Shown here piece by piece: positions 1 to 58,470 of a DNA stretch of 64,000 bases; the stretch's first letter is position 1, and every line of letters begins with the position of its first letter. The translations under genes and the position numbers were made by a program. Below the pieces are notes generated by a model that ran no database searches, was not told where the DNA came from, and worked only from the letters and a program-made list of their open reading frames with translations. The stretch is from sequence record OK040806; one strand, 5' to 3'. Source of the DNA: Escherichia phage CL1.

Positions 1-4651
<4,651 letters not shown>

Positions 4652-4653
4652 TA

Positions 4654-5802
4654 ATGGCAGTAGGTGAAATTCAAATCAGTGCCTTGCCTCAAGCAGCCTT
4701 ACCAATCGACCTTAGTGATATCTTCCATCTTAAGCAGGGTATCGAGGATAAGAGGTGTACTCTTGAGCAATTACTTGCTCCGCACTCAAGCTTAAAGAAT
4801 AACCCTCATGGTGTTACTAAAACACAAATTGGTTTAGATAACGTTATTAATGCTCTTCAGTTAGTTGCTGCAAATAACTTATCAGATATTGTTAATGTAG
4901 CTGAGGCAAGAGCAAATCTACAGATTATGTCTTCAGAAGAGGTCAATAGCCTTATTCAACAGCATATTAATGACAAGAGCAACCCACACAATACAACTAA
5001 GGCACAGGTTGGTTTAAGTAATGTCCAGAACTGGACAACATCTAACCTTTATAATGAAGATGCAGATAAGTATGCTACAGCAAGAGCAGTAAATAACTTG
5101 TACAAGGCTGTTCAGGCTTCTTATCCAGTAGGTACTATCCATCTCTCTATGAATCCTGCAAACCCCTCTACATATTTAATTTGTGGAGGTACTTGGGAGT
5201 TAGTCTCAAAAGGGAGAGCACTTGTAGGTTATGATAGTGATTCTAGGCCAGTTGGTTCAACGTTTGGTTCACAGACTACTGCACTGACGGTTAATAACAT
5301 CCCTGCACATACCCACTCAGTGTATGTCACTGGTGGTGGTCACACTCATGGTGCAACAGCCTCTATCAGTGCTTTTGATTATGGTACTAAAGGGACTACA
5401 ACGTTTGACTATGGAACCAAGACCGTATCTACTTACGACTATGGCAACAGAACAACAAGTGCTGCTGGCTTAACACAAACAACATTCATTAATCGTGGCT
5501 ATGCTGATGGTGGCTGGAGAGGTTTATCGGTTGAGGGGGCAAGCTATGACCCAAGAGCTACGTTGACAACAGCTAACAACCACACTCACTCTGTAGCAAT
5601 TGGTGCGCATAATCATACGGTTGGCATTGGTGCTCACAGCCATACTGTTGCAATTGGTTCCCACAACCACTCAGCAACAGTAACAGTAACCGGAGCAGGT
5701 GAGCATTCTCACTCTGGCACAACTGGTCCAACTGGTTCTGGTCAAGCATTTAGTGTTGAACAGCCATCCTTCGTACTGTATGTATGGCAGAGAACAGCTT
5801 AA
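4654..5802 (+). CDS. tail fibre protein with C-terminal His-x-His repeat domain
   Basis: 382 aa, Gly/Thr/Ser-rich; C-terminal HTHSV, GAHNHTV, GAHSHTV, GSHNHSA motifs and ...GSGQAFSV...YVWQRTA end shared with the next ORF. Confidence 0.55.
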   Translation: MAVGEIQISALPQAALPIDLSDIFHLKQGIEDKRCTLEQLLAPHSSLKNNPHGVTKTQIGLDNVINALQLVAANNLSDIVNVAEARANLQIMSSEEVNSLIQQHINDKSNPHNTTKAQVGLSNVQNWTTSNLYNEDADKYATARAVNNLYKAVQASYPVGTIHLSMNPANPSTYLICGGTWELVSKGRALVGYDSDSRPVGSTFGSQTTALTVNNIPAHTHSVYVTGGGHTHGATASISAFDYGTKGTTTFDYGTKTVSTYDYGNRTTSAAGLTQTTFINRGYADGGWRGLSVEGASYDPRATLTTANNHTHSVAIGAHNHTVGIGAHSHTVAIGSHNHSATVTVTGAGEHSHSGTTGPTGSGQAFSVEQPSFVLYVWQRTA

Positions 5803-5806
5803 TTTC

Positions 5807-5835
5807 TTTACAGGGGCTTTATAGCCCCTTTTAAG
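5807..5835 (+). promoter_or_regulatory. TTTACA followed by GGGGCTTT-AT-AGCCCC stem-loop and TTTT between the two tail-fibre genes
   Basis: hairpin 5813-5828 followed by TTTT; could be weak terminator or promoter with hairpin in spacer. Confidence 0.4.
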
Positions 5836-5848
5836 AGGAAAATTTATA

Positions 5849-44015: not shown

Positions 44016-44045
44016 TTTGACAAGGGGCTTCAAAGCCCCTTAGAA
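44016..44045 (+). promoter_or_regulatory. sigma70-like promoter (TTGACA-18-TAGAAT) with GGGGCTT-CA-AAGCCCC hairpin inside the spacer, upstream of rIIB-like gene
   Basis: TTGACA 44016-44021, hairpin 44023-44038, TAGAAT 44040-44045. Confidence 0.5.
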
Positions 44046-44090
44046 TAGCCTTACAAAATGATTTATTAACTAACAAGAGAGAGTAATAAG

Positions 44091-45200
44091 ATGACTACTA
44101 AAACTAAAGCACAGATTGACGCAGAAATTTACGAACTGGTTAAAGAAGGTAAGCTGACTAAAACAGCTATTGCACAGAAGTTCAATACTTCAACCCGTTC
44201 AGTTGGTCGTGCTGTAGAGCGTCATGAAGCAACCTTAAAAGGTAAGAAGAAGGCGACTTCTACACCAGCTAAAAAGACCCTAAAGCAAGTTGCTAAGTCA
44301 GTTAAAAAGAAAGCTGACAAACCAGTTGAAAAGGCCGTTAAAGACGCTGTACAGAAAGCTCCAGTAAATAAACTGCATGAAGCTATGCAGAAAGATGACA
44401 AGATTGAGTACATGATTACTGGTGACTCTGTAATTATGACTTACGGTTCAGAATCTGAAATTGTTGAGTCTACTCATCCGAACTATCAAGAGATTGTAGT
44501 TCATGTTGTGAAAGGTGAGTTCAAGAAAGCATTTGAACTGATGAACATTCGTAAGTCTATCGAAAACTTCACTCAGGGTGCTATCACAATCAAAGGTGAC
44601 AAGCTCTTCTACGGTGCTGTTGAGATGCGTTCTACTCTGGTTGACCGTATTCTTCATATGATGAAAACTGGTGATAAAGGTTTTGAACGACTTGTAATGT
44701 TCTTCGAAAAACTGATGGAAAACCCATCTAAAGATTCTGTAGAACAACTTTGGGGATTTGTATCACACCTTGATGTTGAAATTGATGAAGAAGGCTACAT
44801 CATTGGTTGGAAGAAAGTCTCTACTCGTGAAGGCAAGCTGGTTGACTCTCACACCTACAAAGTGCCTAATGATTTGGGTAACATTGTAGAGATGCCACGT
44901 TGGATGGTTGATAACAACCGTAACGTAACTTGCTCTCAAGGTCTTCATGTTGGTGCTTGGGATTATGTTCGTTGCTTCTCAGGTGATACCATCCTGAAGG
45001 TTCGTGTCCATCCACGAGATGTTGTATCTGTTCCGACTGATTACAACGATATGAAGATGCGCTCCTCTCGTTATGAAGTTGCAGCAATCGTTGATAATCA
45101 ACGTAAAGTGCTGAAAGCATGGGATGGTAAGACTGAAGCTTTGCATGTCATTGTTGGCACTGCTGGTGAACTCATCTCTCAACGTAAACGTGAAATCTAA
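44091..45200 (+). CDS. rIIB: rIIB-like protein
   Basis: 369 aa; C-terminal ...GLHVGAWDYV...VHPRDVVSVPTDYNDMKMR resembles the conserved rIIB C-terminus (from memory); adjacent to rIIA-like gene. Confidence 0.55.
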   Translation: MTTKTKAQIDAEIYELVKEGKLTKTAIAQKFNTSTRSVGRAVERHEATLKGKKKATSTPAKKTLKQVAKSVKKKADKPVEKAVKDAVQKAPVNKLHEAMQKDDKIEYMITGDSVIMTYGSESEIVESTHPNYQEIVVHVVKGEFKKAFELMNIRKSIENFTQGAITIKGDKLFYGAVEMRSTLVDRILHMMKTGDKGFERLVMFFEKLMENPSKDSVEQLWGFVSHLDVEIDEEGYIIGWKKVSTREGKLVDSHTYKVPNDLGNIVEMPRWMVDNNRNVTCSQGLHVGAWDYVRCFSGDTILKVRVHPRDVVSVPTDYNDMKMRSSRYEVAAIVDNQRKVLKAWDGKTEALHVIVGTAGELISQRKREI

Positions 45201-49263: not shown

Positions 49264-50049
49264 ATGGGTATTGTGAAAATCATCAATGGTGATATCTTTG
49301 CAGCATTTGATAAAGGTAAGTTTGATGTCATCGGTCACGGTTGCAACTGTATGAACTTAATGGGTGCAGGTATCGCTGACAAGATTTCTAAACTTTACCC
49401 AAAAGCATATGAGACTGATACAGAAGTTTATCTGTATGCAGGTGGCATAGGCCACAAGCCCTGTGAGAATTTACTAGGCAATTTCTCTGTAGCACGTTTA
49501 AAACAAGGTCGTATAGCTAACCTTTACACTCAGCTTAAGACTGGTAAAGATGCCCGATACAGTGCTTTAGAGTCATCTTTGAAACAACTTAACAGATACT
49601 GTGAAGTAAATCAGTTGAAGAAAGTTGGCTTGCCTATGATTGGTGCAGGTATCGGTGGGCTAGACCCTCAAGCCGTCACAGTTATCATTAATCAGGTGAT
49701 GAAGAGTGTAGATGTGTATCTGTATGTCTACGAGACAAAGATGTACAACGAGTTACACTCAGGTTGGAAGAACTACTGCGAACCAGAATACTTTGCAGGT
49801 GTAGTAACGTTCACAGACAATACAGTTACCCTCTTCAGACGAAGAAAAGGTAAGATACATCAAAGTAACCCTCCGGTTGAGAAGATGTCTCTAAGTAACG
49901 CTCTAGTTACCCACCTGTCGAAGAGCAATCACAGGATAGCTGTAACATTTGGTAGTGATGCAGATACATATATCTATGCAAGAACTGATGAGGATATCGA
50001 GACGGTCTTCTCTTCACCAGAAGTTACCTTTTTAGGCGCAAAGAACTAA
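49264..50049 (+). CDS. macro-domain-like protein (ADP-ribose binding/processing fold) with C-terminal extension
   Basis: N-terminal INGDIF...DVIGHGCNCMNLMGAGIA and later GLPMIGAGIGGLDP resemble the two Gly-rich macro-domain motifs; ~100-aa unknown extension. Confidence 0.45.
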   Translation: MGIVKIINGDIFAAFDKGKFDVIGHGCNCMNLMGAGIADKISKLYPKAYETDTEVYLYAGGIGHKPCENLLGNFSVARLKQGRIANLYTQLKTGKDARYSALESSLKQLNRYCEVNQLKKVGLPMIGAGIGGLDPQAVTVIINQVMKSVDVYLYVYETKMYNELHSGWKNYCEPEYFAGVVTFTDNTVTLFRRRKGKIHQSNPPVEKMSLSNALVTHLSKSNHRIAVTFGSDADTYIYARTDEDIETVFSSPEVTFLGAKN

Positions 50050-50080
50050 GAAAATCTGTATAATATTCACAATAGACTAA

Positions 50081-50126
50081 GCCTTTCTTATCTGGTAAAT
50101 TTTTTCAGGTAAGGAGGGCTTTTTTT
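50081..50126 (+). terminator. long-stem intrinsic terminator after macro-domain gene
   Basis: GCCTTTCTTATCTG / CAGGTAAGGAGGGC 14-bp stem (three G-U) followed by TTTTTTT. Confidence 0.55.
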
Positions 50127-50320
50127 ATTTCAAGATTGTGCAGGTAGAGTTCTGTAGAGAAATCTGTAGAGAGAATTTTGAACTCCAAAGAGAAAATTCA
50201 TTTTCAAACTGTGCAGGTAATCTCCAAAGAGCTTTTTCATTTTCAAAACGTGCAGACCCCGCTCAGGTCGGGCAAGAAAAATCATTTTAGAATTGTGCAG
50301 GTAGGTGGGTGCAGGTGGGA
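50127..50320. repeat. four direct repeats of ~20 bp (consensus ATTTTCAAANTGTGCAGGTA), two inside tandem 40-bp units
   Basis: copies near 50127, 50199, 50238, 50283 plus GTGGGTGCAGGTGGG; tandem 40-bp units 50181-50220 and 50221-50260. Confidence 0.6.
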
Positions 50321-50479: not shown

Positions 50480-50508
50480 TTGACTCTTTGAGTATGGTTA
50501 TCTAATAT
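50480..50508 (+). promoter_or_regulatory. sigma70-like promoter TTGACT-17-TAATAT heading the small-gene array
   Basis: TTGACT 50480-50485, 17-bp spacer, TAATAT 50503-50508; ~45-nt leader with GGAG SD before ATG 50559. Confidence 0.6.
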
Positions 50509-50558
50509 TTGCATCAGACGGGCAAGCCAGCCCACTTCCTAAACTGGAGAATCTAAAA

Positions 50559-50765
50559 ATGCTTTACAGTCGCGAATTGATGGTTACAACTAACGTTAAC
50601 ACAGGTGTAAAACGTTTCTACATGCAAATCTGCGGCGTATGGTCCAGAATATCAGAAGATGACTATTGCAACTATGTAGGAACGGCTATTAATTCTAATT
50701 GCTATCTGACAAGAAACACTAAGAAATTTACAAGGCAGACAGCGATTTACTACTACGACAAATAA
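50559..50765 (+). CDS. hypothetical small Cys-containing protein (array gene 1)
   Basis: 68 aa; consensus promoter at 50480 and AGGAG-type SD upstream. Confidence 0.4.
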   Translation: MLYSRELMVTTNVNTGVKRFYMQICGVWSRISEDDYCNYVGTAINSNCYLTRNTKKFTRQTAIYYYDK

Positions 50766-50822
50766 AGTACTTTACAGGGGGCTTAAAAGCTGATATCTTA
50801 AGCCCCAGATAAAGAGCTTTAC
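50763..50822 (+). promoter_or_regulatory. cassette A copy 1: TAAAGTACTTTA palindrome, -35 TTTACA, inverted repeat GGGGGCTTAA-N11-TTAAGCCCC enclosing -10 (TATCTT), then ATAAAGAGCTTTAC
   Basis: TTTACA 50771-50776, 17-bp spacer, TATCTT 50794-50799; IR 50777-50806. Confidence 0.5.
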
Positions 50823-50853
50823 TAAATTAACCCTTAAACTAGGAGATTCAAAA

Positions 50854-51234
50854 ATGGCTTATCGTGCACCGAAATTCATCAACAAAGACAACTTCCGCAA
50901 CGCACTGGAGAAGTCACTTGATGAAAAATTTAACGGCAAATTGATTGTTGTTCACGCATTCAATTTTAAGTATGATATTAACGGGAATAAAATCAACCAT
51001 TACACGGCAACCATGTTAGATGGTACGCTATCAAGTGAAAAAGCCGTACTGAATGCACTTGCAGGACGTGGTAAAAACCTGATAAGATGCGATAAGAGAC
51101 GTTATCAGGGTGGCGCATATGGTTATGATGATGCTGTTTATCATCTTGAAAATATGGGCTATTCAGTGGAAAAAGCTGGAGTGTCTCAAATAATCGGCAG
51201 TGATGGTTATGTAACAATCTTCAAAATTAACTAA
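50854..51234 (+). CDS. hypothetical protein (array gene 2)
   Basis: 126 aa; preceded by cassette A and conserved GGAGATTCAAAAATG initiation region. Confidence 0.45.
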   Translation: MAYRAPKFINKDNFRNALEKSLDEKFNGKLIVVHAFNFKYDINGNKINHYTATMLDGTLSSEKAVLNALAGRGKNLIRCDKRRYQGGAYGYDDAVYHLENMGYSVEKAGVSQIIGSDGYVTIFKIN

Positions 51235-51294
51235 TAAAGTACTTTACAAGGGGCTTATAGTTCGATAAAGTAAGCCCCAGATAAAGAGCTTTAC
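51235..51294 (+). promoter_or_regulatory. cassette A copy 2 (GGGGCTTA-N13-TAAGCCCC; -10 TAAAGT)
   Basis: palindrome 51235-51246, TTTACA 51243-51248, TAAAGT 51266-51271, IR 51250-51278. Confidence 0.5.
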
Positions 51295-51322
51295 CACTAA
51301 ATCCTAAATTGGAGATTCAAAA

Positions 51323-51580
51323 ATGGCTATCATCAAAAACGTTGTAATTACTGCAAAGACTCGTGATGACGCTCGCATCATGGCGAAAAAGTTAGGCGGG
51401 AAAGTGGTTGACAACGGAAAACAATCTGCTGTAAGATGGGGCGTGAAGGCTGATAAAAAGTTAACCTTAAAACGCAGTTCAAATAACCTCTTTAAAGGTG
51501 TAAAATCACTCGGTAAAGTGAACGTGTTTACTAAACAAGGTTACAAAATGCACTTATCATTAACTGGCAATTTAATCTGA
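51323..51580 (+). CDS. hypothetical basic protein (array gene 3)
   Basis: 85 aa; cassette A upstream. Confidence 0.45.
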   Translation: MAIIKNVVITAKTRDDARIMAKKLGGKVVDNGKQSAVRWGVKADKKLTLKRSSNNLFKGVKSLGKVNVFTKQGYKMHLSLTGNLI

Positions 51581-51640
51581 TAAAGTACTTTACAAGGGGC
51601 TTATAGTTCGATAAAGTAAGCCCCAGATAAAGAGCTTTAC
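51581..51640 (+). promoter_or_regulatory. cassette A copy 3 (identical core to copy 2)
   Basis: palindrome 51581-51592, TTTACA 51589-51594, TAAAGT 51612-51617, IR 51596-51624. Confidence 0.5.
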
Positions 51641-51669
51641 TAACTAAATCCTAAACTGGAGATTCTAAA

Positions 51670-52182
51670 ATGAAAACTGTAGACGCTACCTTTGAAGTTG
51701 TAAAAGAAAAATTCACCATTATTTATGAAGCTGTCAATTGCTTTGAAGCAAGCCATAATCTTGATAATTGGAAGTTTACAGATGACCATCAAGGCGGCGT
51801 GACGATTAAAAATCCTAACTGTCAGAGTAATGAATTTAAATATGCAATCCCTTTGCATTACAGCCTTAAGCAGCTTTCAAGTGACTATGCAAAACAAGGC
51901 CGTGAGAATCCATCGAAAGAGGCTTACACGAGCTTACAGAAAGAACTAGAAAGGGATTTAGAGGCTTCAGAGTATAACATTGCCGCGAAAGTTGTAGATG
52001 CAAACGGTAGCACGGTTTTAGAGAGTTTTTATATTGGTTATGCTTTCGATTGGTGCTACAGTGACGGCGATGATTTAGATGACAGACTAAAAGAGGAAGT
52101 GAACAACGCAGACGCAGAATCTGAAGTATTAGAACGCTTGGAAGCATTAAAAGATTCAGTGATGAATATCTTTAAGAACTAA
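51670..52182 (+). CDS. hypothetical acidic protein (array gene 4)
   Basis: 170 aa; cassette A upstream. Confidence 0.45.
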   Translation: MKTVDATFEVVKEKFTIIYEAVNCFEASHNLDNWKFTDDHQGGVTIKNPNCQSNEFKYAIPLHYSLKQLSSDYAKQGRENPSKEAYTSLQKELERDLEASEYNIAAKVVDANGSTVLESFYIGYAFDWCYSDGDDLDDRLKEEVNNADAESEVLERLEALKDSVMNIFKN

Positions 52183-52184
52183 AT

Positions 52185-52242
52185 AGATTTCTTTACACGG
52201 GGCTAACAAGCGGATATGATAGCCCCAGATAAAGAGCTTTAC
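52185..52242 (+). promoter_or_regulatory. cassette A copy 4 (variant IR GGGGCTA-N14-TAGCCCC; -10 TATGAT)
   Basis: TTTACA 52192-52197, TATGAT 52215-52220, IR 52199-52226 with compensatory stem change. Confidence 0.5.
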
Positions 52243-52270
52243 TACTAAATCCTAAACTGGAGACTCTAAA

Positions 52271-52567
52271 ATGAAATTATCGAATAAAGTTCGTGAAAAC
52301 CTTAGTAAATTACTCAACAAAATTGATTTTATCGAGACATCAAGAAATAATCATGATGTTATGGAATGGTTGCACGGCAAAATAAAAGGCCGTCGCGTAG
52401 TGATTTGCTTATGGAATAGTTGCAGGGAGTATAAAAAGCCTGTATTGCAAATTAATGTTTATGATGATACTTTTAAAAGTCCTGTAAAGTCTAAAAGCGA
52501 TTTATTAGAATCCTATGAGATAACTGTAAATGGCAAAGTATCACGTAAAGAGGAAACACCATGTTAA
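52271..52567 (+). CDS. hypothetical protein (array gene 5)
   Basis: 98 aa; cassette A variant upstream. Confidence 0.45.
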   Translation: MKLSNKVRENLSKLLNKIDFIETSRNNHDVMEWLHGKIKGRRVVICLWNSCREYKKPVLQINVYDDTFKSPVKSKSDLLESYEITVNGKVSRKEETPC

Positions 52568-52893
52568 TGACTGGTATCACTGCAATCATTGCCATTTTCG
52601 CGCTATATAAGGCATATAAAGCCTATAATCTAGCAAATAAGGCAATCACACAGCAAGTTAGTAATAACCTTGTAGAGAGCTTTCTAGGGCGTTTAAGTGA
52701 TGAGCAAATAAAGCGGCTAGAGATGAGCTTCAGATATAAAGCGAAAACCTATCAGATAAGTGACATCTTCAAAGAGGATTTTCAGCTTGTCGATGATTAT
52801 AACTCACTGATAAATGCTTTAAATATCAGTGACTTAAAAGATTATTACGCTGTAATTGTCCAAGAACTGAACAAACGAAAACAAAACTGTTGA
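52561..52893 (+). CDS. hypothetical membrane-anchored protein (array gene 6)
   Basis: 110 aa; N-terminal TM helix (MLMTGITAIIAIFALY); overlaps previous gene (ATGTTAATG); no cassette of its own. Confidence 0.4.
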   Translation: MLMTGITAIIAIFALYKAYKAYNLANKAITQQVSNNLVESFLGRLSDEQIKRLEMSFRYKAKTYQISDIFKEDFQLVDDYNSLINALNISDLKDYYAVIVQELNKRKQNC

Positions 52894-52945
52894 CACTGAT
52901 TTTTAGATAACCTAAATTACTAATCAACGGGAGGGATGACCTCCC
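52890..52945 (+). promoter_or_regulatory. cassette B copy 1: promoter TTGACA-17-TAAATT plus 5' leader stem-loop GGGAGG-GATGA-CCTCCC
   Basis: TTGACA 52890-52895 (overlaps upstream stop), TAAATT 52913-52918, hairpin 52929-52945, conserved leader to ATG 52980. Confidence 0.55.
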
Positions 52946-52979
52946 ACTAAACAAAGTCCTTAAACTAGGAGATTCAAAA

Positions 52980-53252
52980 ATGTATACTACTAATAACGGT
53001 CGTACTCTAAATGTAACTTTGCGCCACTATGTTAACGGCGTGATGCACTTTGAAGATTTACAAGCTGAACAACATATCTTAGATTGGCAACTTGCAGGAC
53101 TACAAAAAACTGCTACAGGATACGGGAAAAAGATTCCAACTAGTTGGAAAGTATACTATGAAGGGCGTTTGCGCAGAATTTATCAAGATGTATACAGCAA
53201 TAGCGCAACAAGTTACATCATGGTAAAAGGTAAAAAATTACACTTAGTATAA
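52980..53252 (+). CDS. hypothetical protein (array gene 7)
   Basis: 90 aa; cassette B upstream. Confidence 0.45.
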   Translation: MYTTNNGRTLNVTLRHYVNGVMHFEDLQAEQHILDWQLAGLQKTATGYGKKIPTSWKVYYEGRLRRIYQDVYSNSATSYIMVKGKKLHLV

Positions 53253-53309
53253 AGTACTTTACAAGGGGCTTATAGTTCGATAGAGTAAGCCCCAGATAAA
53301 GAGCTTTAC
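53250..53309 (+). promoter_or_regulatory. cassette A copy 5 (-10 TAGAGT)
   Basis: palindrome 53250-53261, TTTACA 53258-53263, TAGAGT 53281-53286, IR 53265-53293. Confidence 0.5.
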
Positions 53310-53338
53310 TACTCAATCCTAAATTGGAGAACTTAAAA

Positions 53339-53743
53339 ATGGCTATTAATAACCGTGAGTTATCAATCTTAAAAGCACGTTTGACCGTTAACCGGATTAA
53401 TGTTATTACGTCATCAGCACCGGACGAAACATTACACAACATTATTGGGAAGATTCAAAGTGTTATCTTAGACGTTGAAAGCGTAAAAAACTCATTGGCT
53501 GACGTTGCAGCAGGTATCACGCTAGACGGTGCACAATATGAAATGGCTGACATGTTAGGCAAATCAAAGGTAATGAATAAAGAGCTTGATTTAAAAATGT
53601 TCCGTTTTGCCGTGAAAGTGTGGCTATCTGTCGAGTATGACGCAAATTTTGCAATCGCTGACTTTTTCGCAACATGGTTGCAACGTAATTTAACAAATTA
53701 TGATTTTCGTGATATCTGTGACGCAATTTACGCAGAACTCTAA
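53339..53743 (+). CDS. hypothetical protein (array gene 8)
   Basis: track start is TTG; ATG at 53339 sits at the conserved distance from the cassette A SD. Confidence 0.45.
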   Translation: MAINNRELSILKARLTVNRINVITSSAPDETLHNIIGKIQSVILDVESVKNSLADVAAGITLDGAQYEMADMLGKSKVMNKELDLKMFRFAVKVWLSVEYDANFAIADFFATWLQRNLTNYDFRDICDAIYAEL

Positions 53744-53752
53744 AAAATTTTA

Positions 53753-53808
53753 TTGACACTGATTTTTAAAACAAGTAAATTACTAATCAACGGGAGGGAT
53801 GACCTCCC
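53753..53808 (+). promoter_or_regulatory. cassette B copy 2
   Basis: TTGACA 53753-53758, TAAATT 53776-53781, hairpin GGGAGG/CCTCCC 53792-53808. Confidence 0.55.
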
Positions 53809-53842
53809 CACTAAGTAAAGTCCTTAAACTAGGAGATTCAAA

Positions 53843-54043
53843 ATGGCTATTATCAACGGTTTAAACATTGAAACTACTCATATCAAAGATATCAAAGTTG
53901 GCGATGTAGTCCTTTCCCACGGCGTAGAAAAAACTGTCACTGCAAAGGATATTAAAGAGGATTCTTTCATGGGTAGGACTCTCTTCGGTGATTCTTATTG
54001 CTTAGGTTATCTTGCAGTTTTAAAAGTTGTCAAAAATAACTGA
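53843..54043 (+). CDS. hypothetical protein (array gene 9)
   Basis: 66 aa; cassette B upstream. Confidence 0.4.
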   Translation: MAIINGLNIETTHIKDIKVGDVVLSHGVEKTVTAKDIKEDSFMGRTLFGDSYCLGYLAVLKVVKNN

Positions 54044-54103
54044 TAAAGTACTTTACAAGGGGCTTATAGTTCGATAAAGTAAGCCCCAGATAAAGAGCTT
54101 TAC
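54044..54103 (+). promoter_or_regulatory. cassette A copy 6 (-10 TAAAGT)
   Basis: palindrome 54044-54055, TTTACA 54052-54057, TAAAGT 54075-54080, IR 54059-54087. Confidence 0.5.
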
Positions 54104-54138
54104 CACTAAATCAAGTCCTTAAACTAGGAGATTCAAAA

Positions 54139-54702
54139 ATGAAATGCTATCACGGAACTACACTCAAAAACTTTGTAAACCTGCTGAATGGTGGCGATAA
54201 GCCTGAAGGTATCTGGAACTGTTCCTACATGGACGATTGTTTCTATGTTTACCCAATGAATAAGGTTATCAAAATGGGATGTCTGGAAGATGAAGAAGAT
54301 TCTTACATCCGTGAACGCTGCATTCAAAGTGCCTTAGAGTCGGGGCTTATTACGGCTGCTTTCCAAATGGAAACGCAGGACGTGATTGTTATTGAAATGG
54401 ATATCCCAGAGGAAGAACTAGAGGACGATTATTCTTGTGACAACATGAGCGAAATTGCCAGCTTTACCGGATACTTTGATAAAAATTGGATTGTTAGCAT
54501 CCACTCAACGAAATTTAGTGCGATGTATGCACCTTTCTTTGTACCTGATACGAAAAACCGCAACTTGGGATATGTTGACGATGATTTGTTGAGTATTGCA
54601 AAAATTGTACAGAATAGCGGTGATAGTTCCGTGTTTTGTGACCTACTGGATAAAATCACGGAAAACCTCACAGAACGCAATTTAAAGGACTTTTTAGGAT
54701 AA
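54139..54702 (+). CDS. hypothetical protein with ADP-ribosyltransferase-like N-terminal motif (array gene 10)
   Basis: 187 aa; N-terminus MKCYHGTTLKNFVNLLNGG resembles the [FY]HGT NAD-binding strand of H-Y-E-class ARTs, Tyr cluster SYMDDCFYVY follows; motif-level only. Confidence 0.35.
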   Translation: MKCYHGTTLKNFVNLLNGGDKPEGIWNCSYMDDCFYVYPMNKVIKMGCLEDEEDSYIRERCIQSALESGLITAAFQMETQDVIVIEMDIPEEELEDDYSCDNMSEIASFTGYFDKNWIVSIHSTKFSAMYAPFFVPDTKNRNLGYVDDDLLSIAKIVQNSGDSSVFCDLLDKITENLTERNLKDFLG

Positions 54703-54765
54703 GCAGTACAAAGACACCAACTTTTAACTTAAGGCCCACACAGGGCCATTTAGAGGGCTTCAAAC

Positions 54766-54999
54766 ATGCTTACAACCGTTTATCTTATCCTTTCTATTTG
54801 TAATGGTCATTCATGTGATTTTAAAGGGCTTGAGGAGTTTACAGGAAGTAAAGAAAATGCCGTTCAGGTCTGTCAGATAGCAAGACAAGACTACCCCGCC
54901 AGTGATGATATACAATGTTACTTTAAGACAGAAGATGAAGAGGGTATCTATTTCGATAGTGTAGACGGGCAATATGAAATTATCATTGAAAAAGACTAG
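54766..54999 (+). CDS. hypothetical protein (array gene 11)
   Basis: 77 aa; hydrophobic N-terminus; no cassette, short hairpin upstream. Confidence 0.35.
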   Translation: MLTTVYLILSICNGHSCDFKGLEEFTGSKENAVQVCQIARQDYPASDDIQCYFKTEDEEGIYFDSVDGQYEIIIEKD

Positions 55000-55053
55000 A
55001 CAAGCCTGATAAAAGTCTGTAAATTGTCAATCAACGGGAGGCGATAACCTCCC
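54997..55053 (+). promoter_or_regulatory. cassette B copy 3 (-35 TAGACA; loop CGATAA)
   Basis: TAGACA 54997-55002, TAAATT 55020-55025, hairpin 55036-55053. Confidence 0.5.
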
Positions 55054-55088
55054 AACTAAACAAAGTCCTTAAACTAGGAGATTCAAAA

Positions 55089-55430
55089 ATGGCTTATGTA
55101 ACCGTAATTACCAATAAAGAAGATTCATCTTGGTCAACTCAAGTAAGCGATAAGATGTCACCTATGCAGTGCCTAAAATACTTTGAGCAATGGAACAAAG
55201 GCGAGGATACCAGCCCCTTTCAAGTGATGCAGATTATCCATACAGATAACGAAGGGAATAAAACTGTTTTGAATAGTGAGTACTATGCAACCAGATTCGA
55301 AACGAGAAGTAAAGCAATGAAGCTCTTACGTGAATCCGGTTATTCTCATATTGCCGCGCTAATCTGGGATGACCTGCTAAAAAATCAGCGTATCAGCTAC
55401 GTAAAACCTGAAAAAATATTCATCAGTTAA
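55089..55430 (+). CDS. hypothetical protein (array gene 12)
   Basis: 113 aa; cassette B upstream. Confidence 0.45.
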   Translation: MAYVTVITNKEDSSWSTQVSDKMSPMQCLKYFEQWNKGEDTSPFQVMQIIHTDNEGNKTVLNSEYYATRFETRSKAMKLLRESGYSHIAALIWDDLLKNQRISYVKPEKIFIS

Positions 55431-55559
55431 TCAATAACTTACAAAAAACTTTTAAAAAAGTGTTGACAATACCCCTTGACATTGGTAACTTTGTTCGAGG
55501 GGGTTTATCTAAAAGGGATTAACTTAAAAGATTCTTTATAGATAAACTTAAAAAATTGC

Positions 55560-55621
55560 TTGCAATCAGATATCAAAACAAGTAAATTACTAATCAACGG
55601 TGAGGGAATGAACTTCCTCAC
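55560..55621 (+). promoter_or_regulatory. cassette B copy 4 (-35 TTGCAA; compensatory stem GTGAGGGA/TTCCTCAC)
   Basis: TTGCAA 55560-55565, TAAATT 55583-55588, hairpin 55600-55621; extra TTGACA boxes at 55463 and 55476. Confidence 0.5.
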
Positions 55622-55653
55622 TAAATAAAGTCCTTAAACTAGGAGATTCAAAA

Positions 55654-56184
55654 ATGAACAAATTTCAAGCTATCAACTACATTCGCTCAAATGCTGTAAT
55701 GTCTAAGCCTGTTAAAGATACCTATGAATTTCGCTGCAATGGGGTACACTTTGCAACCATTACCAAATCAGAAAACGGGGTTTATTACATTCATCGCCGT
55801 AATGTTTATACTGTTGTAGTCTCTCACTTTATGAAAGCTGTAGCGGAATTATTACCGTTATTCTTAGAGATTTACTTGGATGAGTGTAAAAACGTTCATA
55901 GCCACGTTAAAAACCTTTTAAATAGCTATAAAATGGCTTATGAACGTTCAATCAAGTCCTTAAACAAGTTCTATAAAGCCCCTGTAAATACTGTTTCAAT
56001 GGCCTACGCTGCAAATGGTGAAAGAGTAAGACTATCCGATGTGGAAGATATCGAGCTTTACGACCATCGCCCTAACGGTTACTCTCAGACCCTCGGTGAA
56101 GGTTTAACGTTCAATATCAAGAACTTAGAAAAAACTTTAAAAGATATTGAAAAAGATATTGACGAGACAATCAAAAATCTGTAA
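55654..56184 (+). CDS. hypothetical protein (array gene 13)
   Basis: 176 aa; cassette B upstream after a 223-bp spacer. Confidence 0.45.
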   Translation: MNKFQAINYIRSNAVMSKPVKDTYEFRCNGVHFATITKSENGVYYIHRRNVYTVVVSHFMKAVAELLPLFLEIYLDECKNVHSHVKNLLNSYKMAYERSIKSLNKFYKAPVNTVSMAYAANGERVRLSDVEDIELYDHRPNGYSQTLGEGLTFNIKNLEKTLKDIEKDIDETIKNL

Positions 56185-56214
56185 ATTATCAATCAACGGG
56201 AGGGATAACCTCCC
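56159..56214 (+). promoter_or_regulatory. cassette B copy 5 (-35 TTGACG, inside 3' end of upstream gene)
   Basis: TTGACG 56159-56164, TAAATT 56182-56187, hairpin GGGAGG-GATAA-CCTCCC 56198-56214. Confidence 0.5.
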
Positions 56215-56249
56215 TACTAAGCAAAGTCCTTAAACTAGGAGTTATCAAG

Positions 56250-56522
56250 ATGGAACACGTCGAACTGACCACACTTTTACAAATTGCAACCGACAAAGAG
56301 GATGTAGCATTATTCCACCGCATCGAAAGTGATTTATTCAATGGTGAAATCATTAAAGAATCTTACGAAGTTGTCGGATTCAAAGACGGTAAAGCGTTCG
56401 GATTCTTTGACCTCGACAAAGGCAAAGCGGTTACAAAATATGATGTTTTATCTTGTGAGATTCTTACAAAATACAACGAAAAAAAGGCTTGCAACATACG
56501 CCAACATGCAGTAAATTACTAA
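56250..56522 (+). CDS. hypothetical protein (array gene 14)
   Basis: 90 aa; cassette B promoter embedded in 3' end of previous gene. Confidence 0.45.
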   Translation: MEHVELTTLLQIATDKEDVALFHRIESDLFNGEIIKESYEVVGFKDGKAFGFFDLDKGKAVTKYDVLSCEILTKYNEKKACNIRQHAVNY

Positions 56523-56544
56523 TCAACGGGAGGGATAACCTCCC
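56489..56544 (+). promoter_or_regulatory. cassette B copy 6 (-35 TTGCAA, inside 3' end of upstream gene)
   Basis: TTGCAA 56489-56494, TAAATT 56512-56517, hairpin 56528-56544. Confidence 0.5.
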
Positions 56545-56579
56545 TACTGAATAAAGTCCTTAAACTAGGAGATTCTAAA

Positions 56580-56828
56580 ATGGCAACTATCCGCGCAACT
56601 ATCAATGCTTATGGCTGTTATACTCTGGACGTTAAATTTGATATTGGTGGAACTGATGAATGCTTTTCATTAGTGAAGACAGTTATCAAGCAAGTTATCC
56701 CAGATTATAACCCTACTGATGACTTCTGGAAAGATGCTGTAAAAGAGGCATTAAACGATGAGCATCACTATCATTACTGGGGTGACTTGATTGTCTCCCT
56801 GTACTACAATAAACAAGGTTACAACTAA
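56580..56828 (+). CDS. hypothetical protein (array gene 15)
   Basis: 82 aa; cassette B upstream; followed by terminator. Confidence 0.45.
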   Translation: MATIRATINAYGCYTLDVKFDIGGTDECFSLVKTVIKQVIPDYNPTDDFWKDAVKEALNDEHHYHYWGDLIVSLYYNKQGYN

Positions 56829-56838
56829 TCGACGCAGC

Positions 56839-56888
56839 GGGGCTAAATAGCCCCAGATACCTTTACAGCCCCTTAAATGGGCTTTTTT
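56839..56888 (+). terminator. array-terminal hairpin pair: GGGGCT-AAAT-AGCCCC then intrinsic terminator
   Basis: hairpin 56839-56854; second stem AGCCC-loop-GGGCT 56867-56883 followed by TTTTTT. Confidence 0.6.
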
Positions 56889-58470
56889 ACGTCTTATTAA
56901 ATCCTTTCCCTTTCCTTTCCAGAATCTTACTAGACCTTAAAAGCAATAACTCTATAGTCTACTCTATAGCCTTTTATCAAATCAACTTAAATATAAGCCC
57001 ATAACCCGAAAGGGAAGGGCAACCATTTAAACGCTCTATAAAGCCCTATAACAGCCTTATCAACCTAACTTAAGGGATTGCATTACTCCACGCTTAAAAG
57101 CTCTTTATAAAGCTTCTCAGAGCCTTAAAAGAATCTTATAAGGGTGTAAGCTTTATCATCTCGTTAGTATCTTGTGAATAACTAAAAAGGGCTTGTTAGT
57201 GTCTTAAAAGTATGTTATAGGGGCTATAAAGTTGCTTAAAAGTTGCTATAAAGTTACGTAAATGCTAGCCCCCTTAACATTTTCTTAACAAATTTTTAAC
57301 AATCCCTACATAGTTATGCTTTTAAGGCACTTGTTAACAACTTGTTAGCCCCTTGTTAAATCTCTGTTAAGACCACGTAAAAGCCTTGTAAGAGTCTTTG
57401 ACATAGCCTTAAAAGCTCCTGTAAAGCCCTATAAAGAGCTTTCTATATAGTTGGGGTGCAATTACTAGGGAGAGGCTTAAAAGAGCTTACAAAGAGCTAT
57501 AGAGAGCTTTTAAGAGGGCTATTTAAAGGGTCACTAAGAGGGAAAGGGAACTATAGACCAAGAGATAGTGACCATGTTAATAGCTTGTTAAAAAGATTAA
57601 ACACTTGTTAGGAACTTGTTAATTATCTTAACAAAATAACTCTTAAAAATTAACTTGTTAGCTCTTGTTAGTCATCTGTTAAGACTCTGTAAAGCCTACG
57701 TATCAACTGTTAAAAAACTGTTAAGCTCTTGTTAGTTCTGTTAAGAATCTGTTAAGACCTCTGAAGAGATGTTAAGAAGATGTAGCAACTGTTAAGAGAT
57801 TGTTAATGATATTTTAAAATTTTGCAAAGGGGATGTTACAGGGATGTTAAGGGCTACCAAGCAGATATATATCTTCTACAGATATTTTTGAGTTCCTTCA
57901 AAGACCCTAAAAAATGACTTGATAGCTCTATTTTATAAAAATTTTAAAATTCTGAATAATTACCTAGACAGTCTTTTAAAAATACAGGTAGAAACAGGCT
58001 TATAAGATACCTTGTTAGTACCGTGTTAGACCTTGTGAGATAAGGTCTGTAAAGATATTCCTGTTAAGTTTGCTAAAACAGTCTATATAGAGGCTTAGTA
58101 TTTCCTAGTGAACACCTATAGAGAGTGTCATAGCTGACATAGAGATTAAGAGGTGTATAGGAGCTTCTAAGAGGGTATAGAGGGATGGTTAAGGTGATTG
58201 TATAGGTTGTTAAGAAGGCTTGTTAGAAGAGTGTTTAAAGGGCTTGTTAGAGGGTTATTTAGAAGGCTTATACAGAGGGGCTATTAAGACCACTAGATAG
58301 TGACTAAGATACTATATAGTACTATATAACTATATAGAGAGTAAGATTAAGAAGGTTGTTAAGAAGGGTAGATATTTTATTCACATATGATGGTGACCCA
58401 GAGGTTGGGACAACCGATGAAATTTTATAAAAATTAAAAAGCCCCCAATTAAGGAGGCTCTTAAGATATT
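56889..58470. repeat. 1.6-kb ORF-free region dense in short degenerate repeats
   Basis: no ORF of 60 aa or more on either strand; >30 copies of YTGTTAR often phased ~11 bp (57330-57830); CTTAAAAG/CTATAAAG family (56930-57300); ACTATATA x3 (58308-58340); lies between convergent blocks. Confidence 0.7.

What the first reader, a model, noticed from the sequence alone, without database searches (positions are those of the whole stretch)
50480..56888. Cassette-organised array of 15 small genes of unknown function
Fifteen ORFs (66-187 aa) in 6.4 kb. Twelve are each preceded by one of two recurrent regulatory cassettes, and nearly all share the same initiation region (CTAAACT(A)GGAGATTCAAAAATG). Several promoters sit inside the 3' end of the preceding gene. 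The block starts after a long-stem terminator and a direct-repeat region and ends at a hairpin pair. This is the layout of phage hyperplastic early regions, where small host-takeover and anti-defence genes are shuffled as promoter/stem-loop-bounded modules (promoter-early-stem-loop cassettes in T4-type phages). I recognise none of the products apart from one weak ADP-ribosyltransferase-like motif.
Basis: partly seen in the sequence, partly recalled or inferred. Interest (0 to 1): 0.8.

Follow-up and report, generated by a model that had tools for sequence, protein, structure and literature searches.

The report
Promoter-hairpin gene cassettes in Felix-O1-type phage
This stretch of a Felix-O1-type coliphage holds 15 unrelated small genes, most with their own copy of a repeated promoter-plus-hairpin cassette, and related phages gain, lose and swap these genes at the cassettes, as already described for T4-type phages.

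Summary
The window is Escherichia phage C600M2 (Felixounavirus, 100% identity).

- **Layout.** Fifteen unrelated + strand ORFs (66-187 aa) lie between a strong terminator and a terminal hairpin/terminator pair. Six follow cassette A, where a TTTACA-N17-TAnnnT promoter is nested in a GGGGCTTA/TAAGCCCC hairpin. Six follow cassette B (TTGACA-N17-TAAATT, then a GGGAGG/CCTCCC hairpin). One follows a B-like promoter, P0.
- **Distribution.** Both cassettes occur nowhere else in the 88-kb genome. They are conserved across Ounavirinae: 287 and 237 phage records, including Mooglevirus; cassette A also in Erwinia Kolesnikvirus.
- **Plasticity.** Only 16 of 254 related records cover at least 80% of the block, against 254 of about 260 for two control regions. 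Eleven of 12 gene-content differences leave one intact or hybrid cassette, or are flanked by cassettes.
- **Hairpins.** Compensatory and G·U changes indicate selection on + strand RNA. None has a U-tract.

This matches the PeSL cassettes of T4-type phages in anatomy and behaviour, without detectable sequence homology. It is a new member of a known kind, of moderate interest.

The parts
50079..50128 (+). Strong intrinsic terminator (17-bp stem plus U-run) closing the upstream macro-domain operon; left insulator of the block
   Evidence: Fold gives -26.3 kcal/mol, z -4.66. The same site is annotated as a terminator in the AYO145A and wV8 records.
50127..50304 (.). Direct-repeat region: three copies of ATTTnnAnAnTGTGCAGGTAG and three 34-nt copies ending in GTGCAG
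   Evidence: Function unknown.
50480..50558 (+). Entry promoter P0 (TTGACT-N17-TAATAT at 50480-50508), small GGGC/GCCC hairpin (50520-50533) and the shared leader; a B-like cassette
   Evidence: In phage SeKF_63 the same promoter is fused to a typical B hairpin.
50559..50765 (+). g1, 68 aa, unknown function
   Evidence: PHROG 5293, unknown function. Absent in AYO145A and Mushroom.
50766..50853 (+). Cassette A1 (loop variant L2; -10 TATCTT with TGn)
50854..51234 (+). g2, 126 aa, unknown function
   Evidence: Absent in tootiki and Felix O1.
51235..51322 (+). Cassette A2 (loop L1; -10 TAAAGT)
   Evidence: Fold gives -24.2 kcal/mol, z -3.95.
51323..51580 (+). g3, 85 aa, basic; two allele classes among relatives (85 aa versus 96-97 aa)
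51581..51669 (+). Cassette A3
51670..52182 (+). g4, 170 aa, acidic, unknown function
   Evidence: Absent in JLBYU28 and wV8. Homolog in Erwinia phage SunLIRen.
52183..52270 (+). Cassette A4 (variant stem GGGGCTA/TAGCCCC; -10 TATGAT); here a chimera of an A4-type 5' half and a standard 3' tail
52271..52567 (+). g5, 98 aa
   Evidence: Deleted together with A4 in phage L27, the one deletion not mediated by cassettes.
52561..52893 (+). g6, 110 aa, hydrophobic N-terminus; overlaps g5 by 7 nt and has no cassette (probably translationally coupled)
52886..52979 (+). Cassette B1 (the -35 TTGACA overlaps the g6 stop codon)
52980..53252 (+). g7, 90 aa
53253..53338 (+). Cassette A5
53339..53743 (+). g8, 134 aa
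   Evidence: Absent in LF110P2.
53749..53842 (+). Cassette B2
53843..54043 (+). g9, 66 aa
   Evidence: Absent in Felix O1 and LF110P2.
54044..54138 (+). Cassette A6 (A promoter and hairpin fused to the B-type AAGTCCTTAAACTAGGAG leader)
54139..54702 (+). g10, 187 aa: ADP-ribosyltransferase-fold protein. Candidate H-Y-E triad is H5 (YHGT), Y36 or Y38, and E86. Two allele classes differ by about 34% at the nucleotide level.
54733..54747 (+). GGCCC-ACACA-GGGCC hairpin in the 63-nt g10-g11 spacer, which has no promoter
54766..54999 (+). g11, 77 aa, acidic; co-occurs with g10 in the Felixounavirus genomes compared
54997..55088 (+). Cassette B3 (the -35 TAGACA overlaps the g11 stop codon)
55089..55430 (+). 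g12, 113 aa
   Evidence: In wV8 this gene is preceded by an A cassette instead of a B cassette.
55463..55512 (+). Orphan promoter-like site (TTGACA-N17-TAACTT) with a CCCCT/AGGGG inverted repeat and no gene of its own
   Evidence: Annotated as a promoter in AYO145A.
55560..55653 (+). Cassette B4 (TTGCAA-N17-TAAATT; compensated stem GTGAGG/CCTCAC)
55654..56184 (+). g13, 176 aa
56159..56249 (+). Cassette B5 (-35 TTGACG inside g13; the -10 overlaps its stop codon)
56250..56522 (+). g14, 90 aa
   Evidence: Absent in Bas63, dune, KEP2, tootiki, pinkbiff and Felix O1.
56489..56579 (+). Cassette B6 (both promoter hexamers inside the 3' end of g14)
56580..56828 (+). g15, 82 aa; two allele classes (about 94% versus about 70% nucleotide identity)
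56839..56889 (+). End of block: a cassette-A-like hairpin GGGGCTAAATAGCCCC-AGATA, then the only canonical intrinsic terminator of the block (56867-56883 plus T-run)
   Evidence: Annotated as a terminator in AYO145A and Mordin.

Best explanation
The block is the hyperplastic accessory-gene region of a Felix-O1-type myovirus, built from PeSL-like cassettes.

**Shown**
- Thirteen of 15 unrelated small genes each sit behind their own ~60-95-bp conserved cassette.
- A cassette consists of the upstream stop codon in AT-rich sequence, a sigma-70-type -35/-10 pair 17 bp apart, a G-run/C-run stem-loop, and a strong shared Shine-Dalgarno leader.
- The stem-loop is wrapped around the -10 box in type A and lies just downstream of the -10 box in type B.

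**Inferred: expression**
- Host RNA polymerase fires each unit independently soon after infection.
- The whole block is insulated by true terminators at both ends.

**Inferred: role of the hairpins**
- They act in + strand RNA.
- The A hairpin lies upstream of its own predicted start site, so it can only exist in read-through RNA from the preceding unit.
- There it forms a ~20-bp bipartite helix that attenuates, processes or 3'-stabilises that transcript.
- The B hairpin would lie 2-4 nt from the 5' end of its own mRNA and probably stabilises it.

**Gene shuffling**
- The cassettes are near-identical repeats in one orientation.
- Recombination between them deletes, inserts, replaces and reorders single genes without breaking the expression of neighbours. 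This is shown by comparison; the mechanism, homologous exchange, is inferred.

**Payload**
- It is presumably host-takeover or anti-defence proteins.
- Only one is assignable: g10, an NAD-binding ADP-ribosyltransferase-fold protein.
For: **Identity and restriction**
- 100% identity to phage C600M2.
- Both cassettes occur only in this block of the 88-kb genome.

**Promoters**
- All six A promoters, four of six B promoters and P0 are recovered by a consensus scan.
- Four different A loop variants all keep TAnnnT exactly 17 bp from TTTACA.

**RNA structure**
- Inner A stem: 96.8% of cells paired, against 59% or less when slid by one column.
- RNAalifold on 44 unique copies predicts 16 pairs.
- G-C to U-A compensation occurs at two of these pairs (7 and 2 sequences).
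- C-G to U·G occurs in 15 sequences, A-U to G·U in 11, and one pair is natively U·G in 40.
- C·A mismatches occur in only 2 cells, so the signal points to the + strand.
- Fold z-scores range from -2.3 to -4.0.
- B stems vary (GGGAGG, GGGGAGGG, GTGAGG, GGGGG) but still pair.

**Plasticity**
- 16 of 254 records cover at least 80% of the block, against 254 of about 260 for controls.

**Junctions**
- One intact cassette remains at each of six aligned deletion junctions.
- Further breakpoints lie in cassette leaders or hairpins.
- Extra genes are flanked by cassettes.

**Recombination within the block**
- All four combinations of the g10 and g15 allele classes exist.
- The divergent g10 allele is bounded by cassette A6 and the g11 start.
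- Loop variants differ between genomes at the same junction.
- g12 is preceded by B here but by A in wV8.

**Conservation beyond the genus**
- Cassette A is 76-84% identical in Erwinia phages.
- There, only 6 of the 15 proteins have homologs, at 26-49% amino-acid identity and in a different order.

**Timing**
- Felix O1 RT-PCR puts 4 block orthologs at maximum expression at 5 min, 3 at 25 min and none at 60 min (PMC3185647).

**Precedent**
- PeSL anatomy, promoter and terminator activity, and mini-circles were shown experimentally in RB49/phi1 (PMC2839356).

**g10**
-.
Against: - No transcript 5' or 3' ends, promoter activity or termination were measured for these cassettes.
- The hairpins have no U-tract, so terminator activity is doubtful.
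- The Felix O1 RT-PCR is end-point and noisy. It also places capsid genes in the 5-min class.
- Covariation rests on few independent events among related, recombining copies.
- The outer A stem overlaps the -35 box, which is conserved anyway.
- One deletion (L27, loss of A4 plus g5) does not use cassettes.
- Fourteen of 15 products have no assignable function.
- In the Bas63 knockout screen, none of the validated defence counters maps to this block.
Confidence: 0.78

Rival explanations
1. T7-style early operon. The block is read mainly as one long transcript from P0 to the terminal terminator. The cassette-A helices are RNase III (or other RNase) processing sites that cut it into stable monocistronic mRNAs. 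The embedded promoter-like hexamers are secondary.
For: - The full A cassette folds into a ~20-bp bipartite helix with a 3x3 internal loop. From general knowledge, this is similar in size to T7 RNase III sites.
- No cassette hairpin has a U-tract. Only one canonical + strand terminator exists, at the end of the block.
- The G·U pattern shows that the hairpin matters in read-through RNA.
Against: - The -35 box, the 17-bp spacing and TAnnnT are kept through four different loop sequences and three genera. That is hard to explain without promoter function.
- B cassettes have only 6-9-bp stems.
- The two roles are not exclusive: processing of read-through RNA could coexist with cassette promoters.
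Confidence: 0.3
2. DNA-level operators. The palindromes over the -35 and -10 boxes are binding sites for a dimeric phage regulator that shuts off (or turns on) all units together.
For: - TAAAGTACTTTA and GGGGCTTA..TAAGCCCC are inverted repeats lying exactly over the promoter elements.
- AGATAAAGAG is invariant in the copies compared.
- The phage encodes a putative transcriptional regulator.
Against: - Substitutions in the stems are of the G·U type (68 cells) rather than C·A (2 cells). This asymmetry is expected for + strand RNA, not for duplex-DNA recognition.
- Stem sequences differ between genera while pairing is kept.
- B stems vary widely in sequence.
Confidence: 0.12
3. Selfish or neutral repeats (MITE/REP-like) that spread in intergenic DNA and have no regulatory role. 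Gene turnover at them would be a by-product only.
For: - A 14-nt direct repeat (ATAAAGnnCTTTAC) flanks the A hairpin, resembling a target duplication.
- Earlier annotators recorded the cassettes only as direct repeats.
Against: - The cassettes always have one orientation, run from stop codon to start codon, and are always upstream of a gene.
- None occurs elsewhere in the genome.
- The -10 register is kept in all variants.
- Conservation across three genera exceeds that of the genes they flank.
Confidence: 0.05

Closest known systems
PeSL (promoter-early stem-loop) cassettes of T4-type phages: RB49/phi1, T4/PST, KVP40/nt-1 (Arbiol 2010, PMC2839356; Comeau 2014, PMC4122927)
   Same: - The upstream stop codon lies in AT-rich DNA, followed by sigma-70-like -35 and -10 boxes.
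- The stem-loop has a G-run then a C-run, placed between or over the -35/-10 boxes or just downstream of the -10.
- A Shine-Dalgarno sequence and ATG sit at the 3' end.
- The cassettes are clustered in a hyperplastic region of small ORFs of unknown function.
- Indels and replacements between relatives map to the cassettes, and chimeric cassettes occur.
   Different: - The host phage belongs to a different subfamily (Ounavirinae).
- No nucleotide similarity to T4-type phages was detected.
- Cassette A forms a longer bipartite helix in which the -35 region pairs with a conserved downstream box.
- One leader/RBS is shared by both cassette types.
- All copies sit in a single 6-kb block.
- Promoter activity, terminator activity and mini-circles are untested here.
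T7 class I (early) region with RNase III sites between genes
   Same: Small host-takeover genes are transcribed by host RNA polymerase from strong sigma-70 promoters at one location. Structured RNA elements lie between cistrons, with a terminator at the end.
   Different: T7 has three tandem promoters at the start only and ~20-bp RNase III sites. Here nearly every gene has its own promoter, and RNase III cleavage is unproven.
Morons of lambdoid phages (promoter-gene-terminator units)
   Same: Autonomous accessory transcription units are inserted between other genes and vary between relatives.
   Different: Morons are single, unrelated insertions with individual signals. They are not an array with one shared, repeated linker that itself supplies the recombination homology.
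Integron gene-cassette arrays
   Same: A one-orientation array of unrelated small genes is separated by structured imperfect-palindrome repeats at which genes are gained and lost.
   Different: Integron cassettes lack promoters and need an integrase acting on folded single-stranded attC sites. No recombinase is associated here, and each unit has its own promoter.
For g10: the NAD-binding lobe of RNA 2'-phosphotransferase Tpt1/KptA, and ADP-ribosylating toxins (LT-A, pertussis S1, DarT). T4 Alt/ModA/ModB are the phage precedent.
   Different: - No Pfam or NCBIfam model matches it.
- It lacks the RNA-binding N-lobe of Tpt1.
- It carries a family-specific invariant W26 and a DD-x-SC-x-NM motif.
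- Its activity and target are unknown.

Membership tests
PeSL-type regulatory cassette (functional class defined in RB49/phi1) | Repeated intergenic motif concentrated in a hyperplastic region of small non-essential ORFs | tested here: met
   Six A and six B copies are all inside 50.7-56.6 kb of an 88-kb genome. The block is hyperplastic: 16 of 254 records cover it, against 254 of about 260 for controls.
PeSL-type regulatory cassette (functional class defined in RB49/phi1) | Sigma-70-like -35 and -10 boxes with an AT-rich upstream region that holds the stop codon of the preceding gene | tested here: met
   TTTACA-N17-TAAAGT/TATCTT/TATGAT and TTGACA-N17-TAAATT. Stop codons lie within ...TGATAAAGTA.... 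This is a consensus match only; activity was not measured.
PeSL-type regulatory cassette (functional class defined in RB49/phi1) | Stable stem-loop with a G-run then a C-run, located between or over the promoter boxes or just downstream of the -10 | tested here: met
   Type A: GGGGCTTA/TAAGCCCC spans the spacer and the -10 box. Type B: GGGAGG/CCTCCC starts 10 nt after the -10 box.
PeSL-type regulatory cassette (functional class defined in RB49/phi1) | Shine-Dalgarno sequence and start codon of the downstream gene at the 3' end of the cassette | tested here: met
   AGGAG, an 8-nt spacer, then ATG in 13 of 15 genes.
PeSL-type regulatory cassette (functional class defined in RB49/phi1) | Insertions, deletions and replacements between close relatives map to the cassettes | tested here: met
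   Eleven of 12 distinct content differences among 15 relatives of the same genus meet this. Allele boundaries fall at cassettes. Cassette variants are shuffled between junctions.
PeSL-type regulatory cassette (functional class defined in RB49/phi1) | The stem-loop terminates or attenuates transcription from upstream | tested here: inconclusive
   The G·U pattern shows the hairpin is selected in read-through + strand RNA. No U-tract follows any cassette hairpin. Needs a reporter assay or Term-seq.
PeSL-type regulatory cassette (functional class defined in RB49/phi1) | Formation of excised mini-circles by exchange between flanking cassettes | not testable with these tools
   Needs inverse PCR on infected cells or virions.
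PeSL-type regulatory cassette (functional class defined in RB49/phi1) | Found in T4-type phages, or sequence-related to their PeSLs | tested here: not met
   The host phage is a Felixounavirus. A sensitive blastn of cassette A hits 287 records. That number matches the ~260 records that match control regions of this genome plus the 29 Erwinia phages, so no extra phage group is hit. It therefore works like a PeSL, but common descent is not shown.
ADP-ribosyltransferase superfamily (g10 only) | ADP-ribosyltransferase / NAD-binding split beta-sheet fold | tested here: met
ADP-ribosyltransferase superfamily (g10 only) | Catalytic triad (H-Y-E or R-S-E) in the right structural positions | tested here: inconclusive
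   H5-G6-T7 and Y36 are at least 90% conserved across 70 family members. E86 is invariant within Ounavirinae. No residue-level superposition was available.
ADP-ribosyltransferase superfamily (g10 only) | NAD+ binding and ADP-ribosyl transfer | not testable with these tools
   Biochemical assay needed.

The most novel reading that the evidence does not exclude
The cassettes may be more than passive homology.

In this reading the bipartite + strand hairpin, with its invariant AGATAAAGAG box, is recognised by a dedicated phage or host factor, such as an RNA-binding regulator, a nuclease or a recombination protein. That factor would time the shut-off of all units together and drive excision and capture of single-gene mini-circles.

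Ounavirinae would then own an independently evolved, integron-like gene-capture platform whose payload includes a new, Pfam-less ADP-ribosyltransferase family.
Probability: 0.12. Interest if true: 0.75.

Novelty: new member of a known kind. Interest (0 to 1): 0.45.

Why it matters
- Until now, promoter/stem-loop linker cassettes that let phages swap single accessory genes were described only in T4-type phages. The papers I could search mention them in no other phage group.
- An anatomically equivalent system with no detectable sequence similarity, conserved across three genera of Ounavirinae, suggests this is a general solution for large lytic phages. It is either recurrent or very old.
- It gives a simple rule for finding the accessory (host-takeover or anti-defence) gene set in ~290 Felix-O1-type genomes, which are widely used for Salmonella and E. 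coli biocontrol.
- It offers ready-made portable expression units for phage engineering.
- It flags one concrete enzyme candidate, the g10 ADP-ribosyltransferase-fold protein. Its Bas63 ortholog gp107 is conditionally important on E. coli S17-1.
- It also corrects propagated misannotations of three of these genes as tail or scaffold proteins.

Tried and rejected
**Function searches**
- Pfam, NCBIfam and PDB sequence searches of the 15 products found nothing significant.
- PHROGs gave 15 families, all of unknown function.
- All-against-all BLASTP found no paralogy. An earlier clustering link between g7 and g9 was an artefact of alternative-frame ORFs.

**g10 structure**
- The first g10 model, from a 12-sequence alignment, was poor (pLDDT 51) and its fold search meaningless.
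- It was rescued with 70 remote homologs.

**RNA families and literature**
- Rfam found no family in 49.9-58.6 kb.
- Searches for a Felixounavirus transcriptome or mapped start sites found none.
- The PhageMaP supplement with per-gene fitness is not held.
- The wV8 paper and the Bas63 cryo-EM paper say nothing on repeats or promoters.

**Other ideas tested**
- The idea that the block abuts the physical genome end, as in T5 or T7 first-injected DNA, is rejected. In UAB_Phi87 the 608-bp terminal repeats are at the ends of the record, near the terminase gene, about 15 kb from the block.
- The cassette hairpins are not canonical intrinsic terminators, because they lack T-runs.
- The greedy BLAST chaining dropped some segments because of the repeats. 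Junctions were therefore re-examined by direct three-way alignment.

Full report
**Identity.** The 6.4-kb region is 100% identical to Escherichia phage C600M2 (OK040807.1, genus Felixounavirus, subfamily Ounavirinae), where all 15 ORFs are annotated as hypothetical proteins. Window position equals record position minus 14,624. The block lies between a macro-domain gene (49264-50049; Pfam Macro, E 1e-7) and a 1.6-kb ORF-free stretch that precedes a convergent set of - strand genes.

**Checking the observation.** Fifteen + strand ORFs of 66-187 aa occupy 50559-56828. About 81% of this span is coding, calculated from those coordinates.

- Printing the 110 nt upstream of each start shows two recurrent cassettes.
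- Cassette A precedes g2, g3, g4, g5, g8 and g10. Its sequence runs: stop codon inside ATAAAGTA, then CTTTACA, one variable base, GGGGCTTA, a 13-nt loop, TAAGCCCC, AGATAAAGAGCTTTAC, the leader, then ATG.
- Cassette B precedes g7, g9, g12, g13, g14 and g15. Its sequence runs: TTGACA-like box, 17 nt, TAAATT, ACTAATCAAC, GGGAGG, loop, CCTCCC, ACTAAnnAAAGTCCTTAAACTAGGAGATTCAAAAATG.
- g1 follows a B-like entry promoter, P0 (TTGACT-N17-TAATAT at 50480), with a small GGGC/GCCC hairpin and the same leader.
- g6 overlaps g5 by 7 nt. g11 follows g10 after a 63-nt spacer that has a hairpin but no promoter.
- A mechanical sigma-70 scan independently lists all six A promoters, four of six B promoters and P0. 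It finds only one canonical + strand terminator in the block, at 56867-56883.
- The upstream 'long-stem terminator' is real: 17 bp, -26.3 kcal/mol, z -4.7. So are the direct repeats at 50127-50304.
- In the rebuilt complete genome the cassettes occur six times each, all on the + strand and only here. The leader motif occurs 12 times here and once elsewhere.

**Are the hexamers promoters?** Across 16 fetched Ounavirinae loci plus the window, cassette A has four loop families. All keep a TAnnnT hexamer exactly 17 bp from TTTACA (TAAAGT, TATCTT, TATGAT/TAAGAT, TAGTAT) while the other loop positions vary. This is the pattern expected of a -10 box. Activity itself was not measured. For timing there is only the end-point RT-PCR in Felix O1. 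Using the ORF numbers carried in the Felix O1 record, the orthologs of g4, g8, g12 and g13 were maximal at 5 min. Those of g5, g7 and g15 were maximal at 25 min, and none at 60 min. That table also puts capsid genes at 5 min, so the support is weak.

**The hairpins act in RNA.**

- The inner A stem is paired in 96.8% of cells over 36 distinct copies. Pairing drops to 59% or less when one arm is slid by a column.
- Folding the whole cassette shows more. The -35 region (UAAAGUACUUUA) pairs with the invariant downstream box (AUAAAGAGCUUUA). Together with the inner stem this gives a bipartite helix of about 20 bp, at -21 to -24 kcal/mol and z -2.3 to -4.0.
- RNAalifold on 44 unique copies predicts 16 pairs. 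G-C to U-A compensation appears at two pairs (7 and 2 sequences). C-G to U·G appears in 15 copies and A-U to G·U in 11. One pair is natively U·G in 40 copies.
- C·A mismatches appear in only 2 cells. This asymmetry fits a + strand RNA, not duplex DNA or the opposite strand.
- The Erwinia-phage copies carry GGTGTTTA/TAAGCACC, which is a compensated pair.
- The predicted start of an A promoter lies at the 3' edge of the hairpin. The structure can therefore only exist in read-through RNA from the preceding unit.
- Its role is therefore on upstream transcripts: attenuation, processing or 3' stabilisation. With no U-tract I cannot call it a terminator.
- B stems vary in sequence (GGGAGG/CCTCCC, GGGGAGGG/CCUUCCCC with a G·U pair, GTGAGG/CCTCAC, GGGGG/CCCCC, and a GAAA tetraloop form in Mordin). 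They always keep a G-rich 5' arm and remain paired.
- With a start about 7 nt after TAAATT, the B hairpin would begin 2-4 nt from the mRNA 5' end. From general knowledge of E. coli mRNA decay, that is the geometry in which a 5' stem-loop protects mRNA. This is inference.

**Hyperplasticity and modular exchange.**

- Megablast of the block finds 254 related records, but only 16 cover at least 80% of it in one piece. Two control regions of the same length give 254 of 262 and 254 of 258.
- Gene and cassette maps of 14 relatives, plus the wV8 record, show 12 distinct content differences.
- Nine are losses: g1; g2; g2+g3; g4; g5; g8+g9; g9+g10+g11; g14; g14+g15.
- Three are extra genes: between g9 and g10, between g11 and g12, and upstream of g1.
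- Three-way alignments of six deletion junctions show one intact cassette at each. The left flank follows the left gene and the right flank follows the right gene.
- The g1 deletion ends in the two leaders. The g14+g15 deletion in Mushroom joins the B5 box AATCAACGGGG to the terminal hairpin.
- The extra genes between g9 and g10 and between g11 and g12 are flanked by cassettes on both sides. The one upstream of g1 follows a P0 promoter fused to a B hairpin.
- The only exception is L27, which lost A4 plus g5 from the g4 stop codon to 13 nt before g6.
- With about 19% of the block intergenic, eight deletions with both ends in cassettes are very unlikely under uniform breakage (about 0.19 to the 16th power; a rough figure that ignores selection).
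- Recombination inside the block is also shown by allele reassortment. g10 and g15 each have two allele classes (about 90% versus 66%, and about 94% versus 70% nucleotide identity), and all four combinations exist.
- The divergent g10 allele begins at the 3' end of cassette A6 and ends at the g11 start.
- Loop variants differ between genomes at the same junction.
- C600M2's A4 is a chimera of an A4-type 5' half and a standard 3' tail.
- g12 is preceded by a B cassette here and by an A cassette in wV8.

**Depth of conservation.**

- Cassette A is found in 287 phage records at 1,388 places. Cassette B is found in 237 records at 1,240 places.
- The 287 records correspond to the ~260 that match control regions of this genome plus 29 Erwinia phages. 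No T4-type phage is hit, so there is no detectable homology to published PeSLs.
- Citrobacter phage Mordin (Mooglevirus) has an 18-gene version. Fourteen of the 15 proteins are conserved there at 42-82% identity.
- Erwinia phage SunLIRen (Kolesnikvirus) keeps cassette A at 76-84% nucleotide identity and has two further hairpin-in-promoter types.
- In SunLIRen only six of the 15 proteins have homologs, at 26-49% identity and in a different order.
- The linkers are thus better conserved than the genes they link.

**The products.**

- The 15 proteins are mutually unrelated.
- They have no Pfam, NCBIfam or PDB sequence match. They fall in 15 PHROGs of unknown function.
- For g10, a profile search of 1.84 billion representatives found 300 clusters of ~185-aa proteins. 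Those checked come from phages or phage-sized contigs.
- With 70 of these sequences the AlphaFold2 model reached pLDDT 93.3.
- H5-G6-T7 and Y36 are at least 90% conserved family-wide. E86 is invariant within Ounavirinae.
- This agrees with, and strengthens, the remark in the PhageMaP preprint about the Bas63 ortholog gp107. That preprint noted 'slight structural homology' to the Tpt1 NAD-binding domain and found gp107 more essential on E. coli S17-1 (PMC11482910).
- None of the defence counters validated in that screen maps to this block.

**Comparison with what is known.** PeSLs were defined in RB49/phi1 as: stop codon in AT-rich DNA, a sigma-70-like promoter, and a GGGG...CCCC stem-loop most often between or over the -35/-10 boxes, followed by a Shine-Dalgarno sequence and ATG. 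They are concentrated in hyperplastic regions, with demonstrated promoter and terminator activity and mini-circle formation (PMC2839356). They were later extended to T4/PST and KVP40/nt-1 (PMC4122927). The present cassettes meet every sequence-level criterion and the comparative one. Activity and mini-circles are untested, and neither T4-type host nor sequence relatedness is met.

In Felix-O1-type phages the same sequences were published only as '57-bp and 39-bp direct repeats' (PMC3185647). In the wV8 and Mordin records they are annotated only as DR_1-9 or repeat_region features. The only four papers in the searchable library that contain 'PeSL', 'stem-loop' and 'phage' are the two T4-type PeSL studies and two with a single passing mention (a coliphage genome report and an unrelated review). 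None is a study of a Felix-O1-type phage. That library omits most subscription journals.

**Verdict.** This is a PeSL-like cassette array in a second, unrelated myovirus subfamily: a new member of a known kind. It is useful and tidy rather than surprising. The more unusual points are the bipartite RNA helix that includes the -35 region, conservation of the linkers beyond that of the genes, and the ADP-ribosyltransferase-fold payload.

Noticed in passing
window 56880-58470: A 1.6-kb ORF-free, 34% GC stretch lies between the block and the convergent - strand genes. It holds 47 copies of CTNNNAAG/CTTNNNAG, against about 10 expected. Spacings peak at 10-11 bp and at 20-23 bp, which suggests a helically phased array. 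The orientation of the related CTTAAAAG and CTGTTAAG forms appears to switch midway. A similar gap follows the block in the relatives examined, and some records mark repeat_region features there. There is no Rfam hit. It could be a protein-binding array or an origin, but this is unknown.
   Followed up: partly
window 50127-50304: Three copies of ATTTnnAnAnTGTGCAGGTAG (73-84 nt apart) and three 34-nt copies ending in GTGCAG lie between the upstream terminator and promoter P0. Some related records call tiny ORFs here.
   Followed up: no
window 49264-50049: The gene just upstream of the block encodes a macro-domain protein. Its best NCBIfam match is the DarG antitoxin macro domain (E 1.3e-12, far below the family cut-off). 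A DarG-like ADP-ribose hydrolase sits 4 kb from the ADP-ribosyltransferase-fold g10.
   Followed up: partly
window 44016-44050 and 5806-5835: Single hairpin-inside-promoter composites occur elsewhere. One is TTGACA-AGGGGCTTCAAAGCCCCT-TAGAAT between two large + strand ORFs (41645-44011 and 44091-45200). The other is CTTTACA-GGGGCTTTATAGCCCC-TTTT upstream of the ORF starting at 5849. The design principle is therefore not confined to the block.
   Followed up: partly
window 55463-55512: An orphan promoter-like site with a CCCCT/AGGGG inverted repeat and no gene of its own lies in the unusually long 223-nt spacer before g13. It may be the remnant of a lost module. Mordin has a 46-aa ORF at this position.
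   Followed up: no
window leaders, e.g. 52954-52982; L019 (SunLIRen) leaders: The shared leader contains a small anti-Shine-Dalgarno hairpin (UCCU-UAAACU-AGGA) that partly sequesters the ribosome-binding site. Erwinia phages have a different sequence with the same design (CCUU-AUA-AAGG). This may be a common handle for translational control.
   Followed up: no
L006 (vB_SflM_004) 3984-5770; L011 (JLBYU28) 4082-5861: Homologs of g5, g6 and g9 (98, 110 and 66 aa) are annotated as 'tail sheath monomer', 'tail tube protein' and 'prohead assembly scaffold protein'. The notes in the vB_SflM_004 record point to Salmonella phage BPS15Q2 as the source. These look like misannotations that have been propagated between records.
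   Followed up: no
window 54139-54702 (g10 family): g10 belongs to a large family with no Pfam model: 300 clusters at 50% identity, about 185 aa each. Members are found in Erwinia and Pectobacterium phages and in phage-sized metagenomic contigs. W26, D97 and S99 are invariant, and a DD-x-SC-x-NM motif is not typical of known ADP-ribosyltransferase classes.
   Followed up: partly
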